From: the human T2T-CHM13v2.0 reference genome, Homo sapiens
DNA: 64,000 nucleotides
Assembly: GCF_009914755.1 (NCBI RefSeq)
Contig: NC_060937.1
Strand: one strand, 5' to 3'
Both the position numbers and the translations under genes were made by a program. Position 1 is the stretch's first letter. The number at the start of each line of letters is the position of its first letter. The notes under the pieces were generated by a model. It did not search any database. It saw only the letters and a program-made list of their open reading frames with translations, and had not been told where the DNA came from. Positions 45,612 through 46,260 of this stretch are shown here, in pieces.

Positions 45612-46260
45612 ATAAAGATATATACTTAGAAAATGTCTCACTTGAGAAAAATGTCTCAGAAGTATCATTTGTACTCATAAAAATCAGTCAACAGCCGAAG
45701 CAGTGGCTCACGCCTGTAATCCCAGTACTTTGGGAGGCCAAGGAGGGCACATCATTTGAGGTCAGGAGTTCAAGACCATCCAGGCCAACATGGTGAAATT
45801 CCATCTCTAGTAAAAATACAAAAAATTAGCCGGGCATTGTGGTGTGTGCCTGTAATCCCAGCTACTGAGGACGCTGAGGCAGGAGAACTGCTTGAACCCC
45901 AGAGGCAGAGGTTGAAGTGAGTCAAGATCGCATCACTGCACTCCAGCCTGGGCAACACAGCAAGACTCCATCACAAAAAAAAAAAAAAAATCAGTCAATA
46001 AACATTTACTGAGTCAGAGAGAGGTGAATGTCAAAAGCCACAAAAAGATGAGTAAATAAAGCAACAATTATGAACCAGCATAACGGTTATAGTTAACATT
46101 TAGAAAGTATAATGAAAACGAATTTGTACCTAACCCATGTTTTATATGTGTGGTCATCATCACAGCCACTGCTTCAGCTATTGATTGATTTTTATGAGTA
46201 CAAATGATACTTCTGAGACATTTTTCTCAAGTGAGACATTTTCTAAATATATATCTTTAT
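45612..46260. repeat. 97-bp inverted repeat (arms 45612-45708 and 46164-46260, 93/97 complementary, 455-nt spacer)
   Basis: Base-by-base comparison of the left arm with the reverse complement of the right arm. Confidence 0.95.

What the first reader, a model, noticed from the sequence alone, without database searches (positions are those of the whole stretch)
45612..46260. 97-bp inverted duplication predicting a long dsRNA stem about 80 nt upstream of the exon 3 acceptor
Seen: 45612-45708 is the reverse complement of 46164-46260 with four differences (45625/46247, 45687/46185, 45692/46180, 45696/46176). On the PSPC1 transcript three become G-U wobbles and one an A-C mismatch, so 96/97 positions pair; on the opposite strand three would be A-C mismatches. 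The arm is ~80 bp of unique sequence plus the TSD and first ~16 nt of the adjacent Alu, so the duplication postdates that Alu. The right arm is flanked by CATCA on both sides, which suggests a templated insertion (template switch or Pol theta-like). Established: A-C mismatches in long duplexes are favoured ADAR sites. Inference: a lineage-specific hairpin that loops out an antisense Alu next to the branch region of a symmetric 96-nt exon. It could affect exon skipping, editing or back-splicing, or extrude as a cruciform.
Basis: partly seen in the sequence, partly recalled or inferred. Interest (0 to 1): 0.75.

Follow-up and report, generated by a model that had tools for sequence, protein, structure and literature searches.

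The report
Inverted 97-bp duplication in PSPC1 intron
A 97-base piece of a PSPC1 intron was copied backwards and re-inserted 455 bases away after an Alu element had landed there, so the pre-mRNA should fold into a long, nearly perfect hairpin just upstream of exon 3; this looks like an ordinary scar of DNA copying rather than a proven regulator.

Summary
45612-45708 is the reverse complement of 46164-46260 at 93 of 97 positions, and the four differences lie at the stated coordinates. The unique part has only these two copies in the whole genome.

The right arm is the copy. It carries the Alu's target-site duplication and the first 16 nt of the Alu, then breaks off. It sits between two CATCA words.

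On the PSPC1 strand the arms give 93 Watson-Crick pairs, 3 G-U pairs and one A:C. There is a 61-bp uninterrupted run, and the duplex energy is -155 kcal/mol. The stem is kept in folds of 691 and 1491 nt.

The best reading is a single local template-switch or break-repair insertion. This is a known way of making hairpins, although this event is larger and longer-range than the short events catalogued so far.

The predicted consequence is a passive nuclear ADAR substrate that is removed with the intron. The 3:1 split of G-U to A:C is not evidence of selection (P = 0.31).

Back-splicing and cruciform extrusion are unlikely. Both arms lie in one intron, and the spacer is 455 bp.

Editing, duplex formation, age and any effect on splicing could not be tested here.

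Verdict: real, a new member of a known kind, of modest interest.

The parts
45612..45708 (-). Left arm. This is the source of the copy and forms the 3' arm of the hairpin in PSPC1 pre-mRNA. It consists of about 67 nt of unique sequence, the 14-nt Alu 5' target-site duplication and the first 16 nt of the Alu.
   Evidence: It is continuous with the full-length Alu.
46164..46260 (-). Right arm. This is the inserted reverse-complement copy and forms the 5' arm of the hairpin in PSPC1 pre-mRNA. It carries the A of the single A:C mismatch at 46185.
   Evidence: It holds only 16 nt of Alu head and then breaks into unrelated unique sequence.
45693..45985 (+). Full-length Alu with its poly-A, antisense to PSPC1. 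It makes up most of the 455-nt loop.
   Evidence: One search gives the blastn map. One search gives 22 of 246 non-CpG and 21 of 46 CpG differences from the majority of 58 window Alus. One search gives sub-threshold 7SL hits.
45679..45692 (+). Alu 5' target-site duplication, AAAAATCAGTCAA plus C. It lies inside the left arm.
45986..45999 (+). Alu 3' target-site duplication copy, AAAAATCAGTCAAT. It serves as an internal outgroup for two of the four arm differences.
46158..46162 (+). Upstream CATCA of the direct repeat that flanks the insert. It lies within TCATCATCA and is followed by an unexplained C at 46163.
   Evidence: with the control.
46261..46265 (+). Downstream CATCA of the direct repeat that flanks the insert. 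If the arm's last two bases (AT) are included, the repeat is ATCATCA.
   Evidence: with the control.
45436..45531 (-). PSPC1 exon 3, 96 nt. It encodes the first half of the NOPS domain. The acceptor AG is at 45533-45532 and the donor is AA|GUAAGA.
   Evidence: The hub annotation, (PF08075, E 6.3e-12, profile positions 1-28 of 52).
45561..45561 (-). Best branch-point candidate, a UUAAU motif with the A at -30. It lies 50 nt downstream of the stem base. This is inferred from the motif only.

Best explanation
This is a local inverted templated insertion. After an Alu had inserted into PSPC1 intron 2 and its 5' end had already mutated, one DNA-synthesis error copied 97 nt in reverse complement. 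The copied stretch was the unique flank, the Alu target-site duplication and the first 16 nt of the Alu. The copy was placed 455 bp away at a TCATCATCA site, and CATCA was re-copied on return. I think a template switch at a stalled fork or during break repair is most likely. In the four-point description, the order of switch points is 3-2-1-4 with a short backward return. Four transitions have accumulated since the event.

The consequence is inferred, not shown. PSPC1 pre-mRNA folds within seconds of transcription into a 97-bp AU-rich stem. It has 93 Watson-Crick pairs, 3 G-U pairs and 1 A:C, and it closes a 455-nt loop that holds the antisense Alu. This stem is a good nuclear ADAR substrate, with 46185 as a favoured site. 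It is discarded with the intron and has little or no effect on inclusion of exon 3. On this reading it is a neutral scar.
For: Shown:
- The repeat and its differences are as described.
- There are only two copies in the genome, so it is not a repeat family. The right-hand flank 46000-46163 is single-copy.
- The right arm stops 16 nt into the Alu head and shares that head's departures from the Alu majority consensus.
- The flanking CATCA repeat is rare by chance, at 0.77% of random intervals.
- Polarising the differences with the Alu 3' target-site copy and the Alu consensus puts changes on both arms, as expected for drift.
- The stem is present in the minimum-energy and centroid folds at 691 nt (z = -16.7; 0 of 20 shuffles fold as well) and at 1491 nt.
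- Duplex energy is -155.3 kcal/mol, with a 61-bp perfect run.
- All Alus between 42969 and 49228 share one orientation, so no inverted Alu competes nearby.

From papers:
- Template switching creates inverted repeats and hairpins in primate genomes. More than 6000 such hairpins are reported, enriched in introns (PMC5453318 passages; PMC10710096 abstract).
[quoted passage not shown] Non-repetitive ones run at about 2 per Mb (PMC11838218 section 9).

In 264 kb scanned here, this is the single non-repeat pair among 7 inverted pairs of at least 60 nt and at least 90% identity.
Against: - There is no outgroup sequence. The pre-insertion site, the reality of the CATCA duplication (the site is already CAT-repetitive) and the date are therefore all inferred.
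- Junction microhomology is at most 2 nt, and one base (C at 46163) is unexplained. The exact mechanism is open.
- In the human-chimp survey of short template switches, event types in which point 4 precedes point 1 were not observed. That survey also searched for sources only within 100-200 bp (PMC5453318). This event has a 97-nt fragment and a source 455 bp away, so it lies outside what was catalogued.
- Neutrality is a default, not a result. No editing, duplex or splicing data could be consulted.
- The stem lies near an exon that encodes half of the NOPS domain. A precedent exists for same-intron dsRNA modulating a downstream exon, in RABL5 (PMC11263572).
Confidence: 0.68

Rival explanations
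1. The hairpin is a functional cis-element. By looping out the antisense Alu and shortening the effective distance to upstream intron sequence, or through ADAR binding and editing, it tunes inclusion of exon 3 or protects it from interference by the antisense Alu.
For: - The stem base lies 80 nt from the acceptor, and the antisense Alu starts 160 nt from the exon.
- Exon 3 is in-frame and encodes NOPS profile positions 1-28 of 52, so its inclusion matters.
- There is a precedent in RABL5. There, an antisense Alu upstream of an exon promotes skipping, and pairing with a second Alu in the same intron counteracts this (PMC11263572 passages).
Against: - There is no sign of selection. The arms differ by 4.1%, with changes on both arms. 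The G-U versus A:C split has P = 0.31.
- The stem does not overlap the branch-point candidates at -30 and -24 or the pyrimidine tract.
- The donor (GUAAGA) and acceptor look ordinary.
- The hub's annotation lists no alternative exon in this region.
- No splicing data could be consulted.
Confidence: 0.1
2. The product is the same but the origin differs. A double-strand break with staggered ends at the CAT-repeat site was repaired by end joining, with filler DNA synthesised from the nearby sequence. This would be polymerase-theta-type or NHEJ capture. The staggered ends were filled in, which gave the CATCA duplication.
For: - The flanking 5-nt direct repeat resembles a target-site duplication from filled-in staggered ends.
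- There is an orphan base at 46163 and almost no junction microhomology.
- Backward-return events were not seen among the replicative short template switches surveyed (PMC5453318).
Against: - From recall, templated inserts made by polymerase theta are usually much shorter than 97 nt and are primed by microhomology, which is absent at the 46163/46164 junction.
- Snap-back onto sequence 455-550 nt away needs long resection.
- Present-day sequence cannot separate this origin from a fork-associated switch.
Confidence: 0.25
3. The insert was reverse-transcribed from PSPC1 pre-mRNA. The plus-strand sequence of the right arm equals the sense intron RNA of the left-arm region. The cDNA was captured at a break in the orientation opposite to the gene.
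For: The plus-strand sequence of 46164-46260 reads as the PSPC1 transcript of 45708-45612. Nascent intron RNA is abundant at its own locus, which is inference. From recall, RNA-derived templated insertions at breaks are described.
Against: - There is no poly-A.
- The flanks are not A- or T-rich in the way an L1 endonuclease site would be.
- A source only 455 bp from the target is what local DNA template switching predicts. For an RNA template the proximity would be a coincidence.
- The arm differences run G to A in the copy, not A to G, so there is no trace of an edited template.
Confidence: 0.04
4. The arms are terminal inverted repeats of a DNA transposon or another repeat family, or they are an assembly artefact.
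For: Two inverted arms enclose about 455 bp. Nothing else supports this.
Against: - There are only 2 copies in the genome.
- The inner end of each arm is Alu head plus the Alu target-site duplication, which a transposon terminus could not contain.
- The outer flanks, TTTTATAATA and CATCAACATG, are not a direct repeat.
- Four differences and a 455-bp unique spacer are not what a fold-back read artefact gives.
Confidence: 0.02

Closest known systems
Template-switch mutations (four-point model; Loytynoja & Goldman 2017, PMC5453318; TSM-made hairpins and miRNAs, Monttinen et al. 2023, PMC10710096)
   Same: [quoted passage not shown] This creates a perfect inverted repeat, and hence an RNA hairpin, de novo inside an intron of an expressed host gene. 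The point order 3-2-1-4 is the described type that makes an inverted repeat.
   Different: - The fragment is 97 nt and the source is 455 bp away. The catalogued events are short, and sources were sought only within 100-200 bp.
- The loop is 455 nt, so this is not a miRNA-like hairpin.
- The flanking CATCA duplication implies a return upstream of the departure point, a type not observed in that survey.
Inverted Alu pairs (IRAlus) as intronic dsRNA and ADAR substrates (review PMC11263572)
   Same: It is an intramolecular intronic duplex formed by two inverted copies a few hundred nt apart. Nuclear A-to-I editing is expected, and there may be an influence on a neighbouring exon, as in RABL5.
   Different: - Only 16 of the 97 paired nt are Alu.
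- The pairing is much better: 96 of 97 positions including wobbles, with a 61-bp perfect run. The 25 longest inverted pairs listed for 37000-59000, which the map places on Alus, are 75-88% complementary.
- The stem is shorter than an Alu pair, at 97 against about 280 bp.
Non-repetitive, highly paired predicted dsRNAs of the human genome (dsRNAscan; Andrews & Bass 2025, PMC11838218)
   Same: It is an intronic duplex of mostly non-repeat sequence with more than 96% pairing. This class is counted in the thousands: 31,017 predictions with more than 96% pairing, and non-repetitive ones at about 2 per Mb.
   Different: I could not check whether this locus is in that catalogue, which is a web resource. 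The supplement text held here has no PSPC1 entry. At 97 bp the stem is well below the length of more than 300 bp that the paper treats as MDA5-relevant.
Microhomology-mediated break-induced replication / fork stalling and template switching (PMC2621351, seen in a search listing only)
   Same: It is an inverted copy of nearby sequence inserted with little or no junction homology.
   Different: Those models were framed for rearrangements of kb to Mb. This is a 97-bp insertion with no other rearrangement visible.

Membership tests
Template-switch mutation (four-point model) | A fragment (2->3) copied in reverse-complement orientation from nearby sequence | tested here: met
   46164-46260 is the reverse complement of 45612-45708 at 93 of 97 positions. 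The source is 455 bp away on the same chromosome.
Template-switch mutation (four-point model) | A single event explains the difference between the ancestral and the derived sequence | not testable with these tools
   No primate outgroup or ancestral sequence is available in any collection offered. No paralogue of the site exists in the genome.
Template-switch mutation (four-point model) | Switch-point order is among the observed types, meaning point 4 does not precede point 1 | tested here: inconclusive
   Points 3 < 2 < 1 are clear. The flanking CATCA duplication suggests that point 4 lies 5-7 nt before point 1. However, the site is CAT-repetitive and may have held two units beforehand (PMC5453318).
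Template-switch mutation (four-point model) | Short range, with the source within about 100-200 bp and a fragment of tens of bp, as catalogued | tested here: not met
   The fragment is 97 nt and the source is 455 bp away, against a search range of 100-200 bp.
Inverted Alu pair (IRAlus) dsRNA | Both arms are Alu elements in opposite orientation | tested here: not met
   Only 16 nt of each arm are Alu. All Alus from 42969 to 49228 are in the same orientation.
DNA transposon with terminal inverted repeats | Multi-copy family with a target-site duplication outside both termini | tested here: not met
   There are 2 copies in the genome. The outer flanks are unrelated, and the inner arm ends are Alu-derived.
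Curated RNA family (pri-miRNA, snoRNA and others) | A match to an Rfam covariance model at the gathering score | tested here: not met
   In 45300-46500 there were 6 matches at E <= 1, all below their gathering scores. The four best lie in the Alu, at 45694-45976. One weak match lies mostly inside the right arm: snoR79 at 46216-46273, 19.5 bits against a gathering score of 80, E = 0.6. One abuts the right arm: SNORD104 at 46126-46163, 19.3 bits against 40.
ADAR substrate / editing-enriched dsRNA | An intramolecular duplex of at least about 25-30 bp in a transcribed region | tested here: met
   The stem is 97 bp with a 61-bp perfect run and an energy of -155.3 kcal/mol. It lies in PSPC1 intron 2 on the sense strand. 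The length criterion comes from PMC11838218 section 7.
ADAR substrate / editing-enriched dsRNA | Observed A-to-G changes in RNA | not testable with these tools
   No editing database is offered. The site lists of PMC4365171 are too large to read here.
Intronic complementary sequences that drive exon circularisation | The two complementary arms lie in the two introns that flank the circularised exon(s) | tested here: not met
   Both arms lie in intron 2 (45532-58348). Same-intron pairing favours linear splicing (PMC11263572).
Cruciform- or hairpin-prone DNA palindrome | A short or absent spacer between long, similar arms | tested here: not met
   The spacer is 455 bp. In eukaryotic cells a 52-bp spacer already abolished fork stalling at inverted Alus, and the Okazaki initiation zone is 100-200 nt (PMC7999016).

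The most novel reading that the evidence does not exclude
One template-switch mutation gave PSPC1 a new regulatory dsRNA in its own pre-mRNA. The near-perfect stem sequesters the antisense Alu away from the NOPS-coding exon 3. Once hyper-edited, it is bound by the inosine-RNA-retaining DBHS proteins (NONO, SFPQ and PSPC1 itself). This would create a lineage-specific autoregulatory loop on the splicing or nuclear retention of PSPC1 transcripts. The DBHS-inosine link is recalled from Zhang & Carmichael 2001, which I saw only as a reference entry.
Probability: 0.04. Interest if true: 0.6.

Novelty: new member of a known kind. Interest (0 to 1): 0.3.

Why it matters
If the hairpin forms in cells, it is among the best-paired non-repeat duplexes in a ubiquitously expressed gene. 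It has a datable, single-step origin and its source still sits beside it. That makes it a tidy natural example of how template switching creates long dsRNA in introns. It is also a convenient test case: deleting one arm would show whether a same-intron duplex next to an essential exon affects splicing, Alu exonisation or ADAR loading. In size and range it lies between the catalogued short template switches and the kb-scale rearrangements, a gap that current scans do not cover. None of this makes it exceptional. Thousands of comparable predicted dsRNAs exist, and nothing here shows function.

Tried and rejected
- Editing evidence: the hyper-editing paper's site lists are too large to be read here. 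The dsRNAscan supplement text holds no PSPC1 entry. A search for PSPC1 + editing site + intronic + hairpin gave 1 unrelated review. A search for PSPC1 / hyper-edit / non-Alu (114 papers, 15 listed) showed no listed paper that couples PSPC1 with this locus.
- circRNA: a search for circPSPC1 and variants found 2 papers. The one I opened only names circPSPC1 without giving its exons.
- Outgroup or paralogue: the genome holds no third copy of the arm and no second copy of the right-hand flank. No primate genomes are offered, so dating rests on 4 differences in 97 nt.
- Rfam: nothing reaches a gathering score.
- PMC7954356 was queried for event lengths and returned no passages.
- Base-rate survey: I planned to scan 1 Mb.
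- Selection on strand-specific pairing was rejected (P = 0.31).
- The transposon, repeat-family and assembly-artefact readings were rejected.
- An editing signature in the copy, as evidence of an RNA template, was rejected. The differences run the wrong way.

Full report
**1. Observation**

Reading 45380-46420 and running repeat finder on 45000-47500 gives one inverted pair. Its arms are 45609-45708 and 46164-46263, 100 nt long, 95% complementary and 455 nt apart.

A base-by-base comparison gives 93 of 97 identities for 45612-45708 against the reverse complement of 46164-46260. All four are transitions. Outside these limits the similarity collapses.

Chance is excluded on three counts:
- A 34-nt core occurs twice in the window, and 0 of 100 shuffles gave two matches.
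- Among 2099 inverted blastn matches in the 64-kb window, only two reach at least 92% identity over at least 40 nt. These are this pair and a 50-nt pair.
- Among matches of at least 80 nt, the next best identity bin is 90%.
- The 80-nt non-Alu part has exactly two matches in the 3.1-Gb genome, namely the two arms.

**2. Anatomy and order of events**

The left arm runs without a break into a full-length plus-strand Alu at 45693-45985. That Alu is bounded by a target-site duplication, AAAAATCAGTCAA plus one more base, at 45679-45692 and 45986-45999. The arm is therefore about 67 nt of unique sequence, 14 nt of target-site duplication and 16 nt of Alu head.

The right arm holds the same three parts in reverse complement. 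It then breaks into unrelated single-copy sequence on both sides. The right arm is therefore the copy, and the event came after the Alu insertion.

The Alu head shared by both arms already departs from the majority consensus of 58 near-full-length Alus of the window. So the Alu had aged before it was copied.

The Alu itself differs from that consensus at 22 of 246 non-CpG sites and 21 of 46 CpG sites. It ranks 44th of 58 in order of rising non-CpG divergence. From recalled diagnostic features it looks AluS-like, but I did not test that.

**3. Polarity and age**

The Alu's 3' target-site copy acts as an internal outgroup.
- At 45687 the left arm and the 3' copy share G, so the right arm changed.
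- At 45692 the right arm and the 3' copy share T, so the left arm changed.
- At 45696, a CpG, the left arm keeps the Alu consensus C, so the right arm changed.
- 45625 cannot be polarised.

Changes on both arms are what drift predicts.

The pairwise difference is 4 of 97, or 4.1%, with a Poisson 95% interval of 1.1-10.6%. I compared this with genome-wide divergences that I recall but did not check here: human-chimpanzee about 1.2%, human-orangutan about 3%, human-macaque about 6%. The point estimate then falls around the ape or catarrhine stem. The interval spans roughly from the human-chimpanzee split up to the Alu's own age.

A relative clock gives a younger figure, about a fifth of the Alu's age. 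It compares 3 non-CpG differences over about 95 sites, or about 1.6% per lineage, with 8.9% for the Alu. The mixed-subfamily consensus inflates the Alu's figure, though. The date is open without outgroups, and none is available in the collections offered.

**4. Junctions and mechanism of origin**

The insert sits in TCATCATCA. CATCA lies at 46158-46162 and again at 46261-46265. If the arm's last two bases are included, the repeat is ATCATCA. In a control of 200000 random 97-bp intervals of the window, scored with the same offsets allowed, 1532 (0.77%) showed such a flanking 5-mer repeat. The repeat is therefore probably part of the event. The caveat is that the site is CAT-repetitive and might have carried two units already.

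One base, the C at 46163, is explained neither by the source nor by the repeat. Microhomology at the two junctions is 0 and about 2 nt.

The product is the kind described by the four-point template-switch model. [quoted passage not shown] Such events have created more than 6000 hairpins in primates, enriched in introns (PMC10710096, abstract).

This event differs from the catalogued ones in two ways. The human-chimpanzee survey looked for sources only within 100-200 bp, whereas this source is 455 bp away and the fragment is 97 nt. The survey also did not observe types in which point 4 precedes point 1, which is what a real CATCA duplication implies.

I therefore favour a template switch during DNA synthesis, at a stalled fork or in break repair. 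I cannot separate the replicative version from the end-joining version. Repair of a staggered break with filler synthesis is a serious rival (0.25). An RNA-templated origin is possible but unsupported (0.04). It lacks a poly-A and an L1-type site, the source is suspiciously close, and the differences run G to A rather than A to G.

**5. Predicted RNA**

Folded as PSPC1-sense RNA, 45590-46280 gives -272.1 kcal/mol, against -167.6 +/- 6.3 for 20 shuffles (z = -16.7; 0 of 20 fold as well). The full stem is present in both the minimum-energy and the centroid structure. The stem survives unchanged in a 1491-nt context that includes exon 3 and the next Alu.

The arms alone give:
- -155.3 kcal/mol;
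- 93 Watson-Crick pairs, 3 U-G pairs and one A:C;
- Watson-Crick runs of 13, 61, 4, 3 and 12;
- 33% G+C;
- 66 adenosines in the duplex.

The opposite strand folds almost as well: -252.9 kcal/mol, z = -15.2, duplex -147.0. The probability that at least 3 of 4 transitions fall as wobbles on a named strand is 0.31. The strand asymmetry is therefore no evidence of selection.

No opposite-orientation Alu lies between 42969 and 49228. This stem is thus the dominant local duplex. The 25 longest inverted pairs listed for 37000-59000, which the map places on Alus, are 75-88% complementary and 113 nt to 18 kb apart.

**6. Likely consequences**

A duplex of this length and quality meets the structural criteria used for ADAR substrates (PMC11838218, section 7). 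The single A:C has its A at 46185 in the context UCAAUCA.

This is prediction only. I could not consult any editing, duplex or splicing data.

The stem base is at -81. yUnAy motifs lie at -48, -30, -24 and -12, and there is a further match at -82 inside the stem base. The pyrimidine tract and the AG are untouched. The donor is AA|GUAAGA.

Exon 3 encodes NOPS profile positions 1-28 of 52 (E = 6.3e-12). An in-frame skip would therefore remove half of that domain. This argues that strong interference would have been selected against.

A precedent does exist for a same-intron duplex modulating a downstream exon next to an antisense Alu, in RABL5 (PMC11263572). I therefore keep a functional reading at about 0.1.

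- Back-splicing needs pairing across the two flanking introns, and same-intron pairing favours linear splicing.
- Cruciform or lagging-strand hairpin formation is disfavoured by a 455-bp spacer. In eukaryotic cells a 52-bp spacer already abolished fork stalling at inverted Alus, and the Okazaki initiation zone is 100-200 nt (PMC7999016).

**7. How unusual is it?**

I scanned the window plus the next 200 kb, 264 kb in all. Seven inverted pairs reach at least 60 nt and at least 90% identity within 6-kb scan windows. Of these:
- five are Alu-Alu pairs;
- one is a non-Alu element with 4 copies in the 264 kb, which looks L1-like by recall and was not tested;
- one is this pair.

That agrees with the published density of about 2 non-repetitive predicted dsRNAs per Mb. 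The same paper reports 31,017 predictions with more than 96% pairing among 5.13 million (PMC11838218, sections 9 and 10). The feature is therefore locally rare but belongs to a class numbering thousands. It may already be in that catalogue, which I could not query.

**8. Verdict**

The origin story (post-Alu, templated, inverted, local) is well supported. The exact enzymology and the date are open, and the functional suggestions are untested. Two of them, back-splicing and cruciform extrusion, are improbable.

It is a new member of a known kind: an intronic dsRNA made by template switching. It is notable mainly as a clean mid-range example with its source still alongside.

Noticed in passing
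window 45630-45658 (mirrored in 46214-46242): Each arm contains an internal direct repeat. AAAATGTCTCA occurs at 45630 and again at 45648, 18 nt apart. This would allow a slipped alternative register of the stem.
   Followed up: partly
window 42969-49228: All 11 Alu-like blocks in this 6-kb stretch around exon 3 have the same orientation, plus strand, which is antisense to PSPC1. The nearest opposite-orientation Alus are at 42620-42895 and 49279-49419. Cross-exon inverted Alu pairs (for example 40201-40486 with 45692-45984, 82% over 258 nt) are the candidates for any circularisation of exon 3, not the 97-bp repeat.
   Followed up: partly
window 46266-46315: Directly after the right arm lies a C/A-rich, low-complexity stretch (CCCACCACCTCAACCCACCCATCTGTACCCACCACCCAG). 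I did not examine its nature.
   Followed up: no
G000:C13:19092153-19092585 (locus L015/L016 region): A second well-paired inverted repeat lies 180 kb downstream: 122 nt, 95% identity, 189-nt spacer. It is not Alu and has 4 copies in the 264 kb scanned. By recall it looks like inverted L1 fragments of the kind made by twin priming, but I did not test that.
   Followed up: partly
window 45827-45878 and 45895-45954: There are sub-threshold Rfam matches to the Alu-derived miRNA families mir-1268 (36 bits against a gathering score of 83) and mir-3135 (30.6 against 80) inside the looped Alu. These are expected for Alu sequence and are not evidence of a miRNA gene.
   Followed up: no
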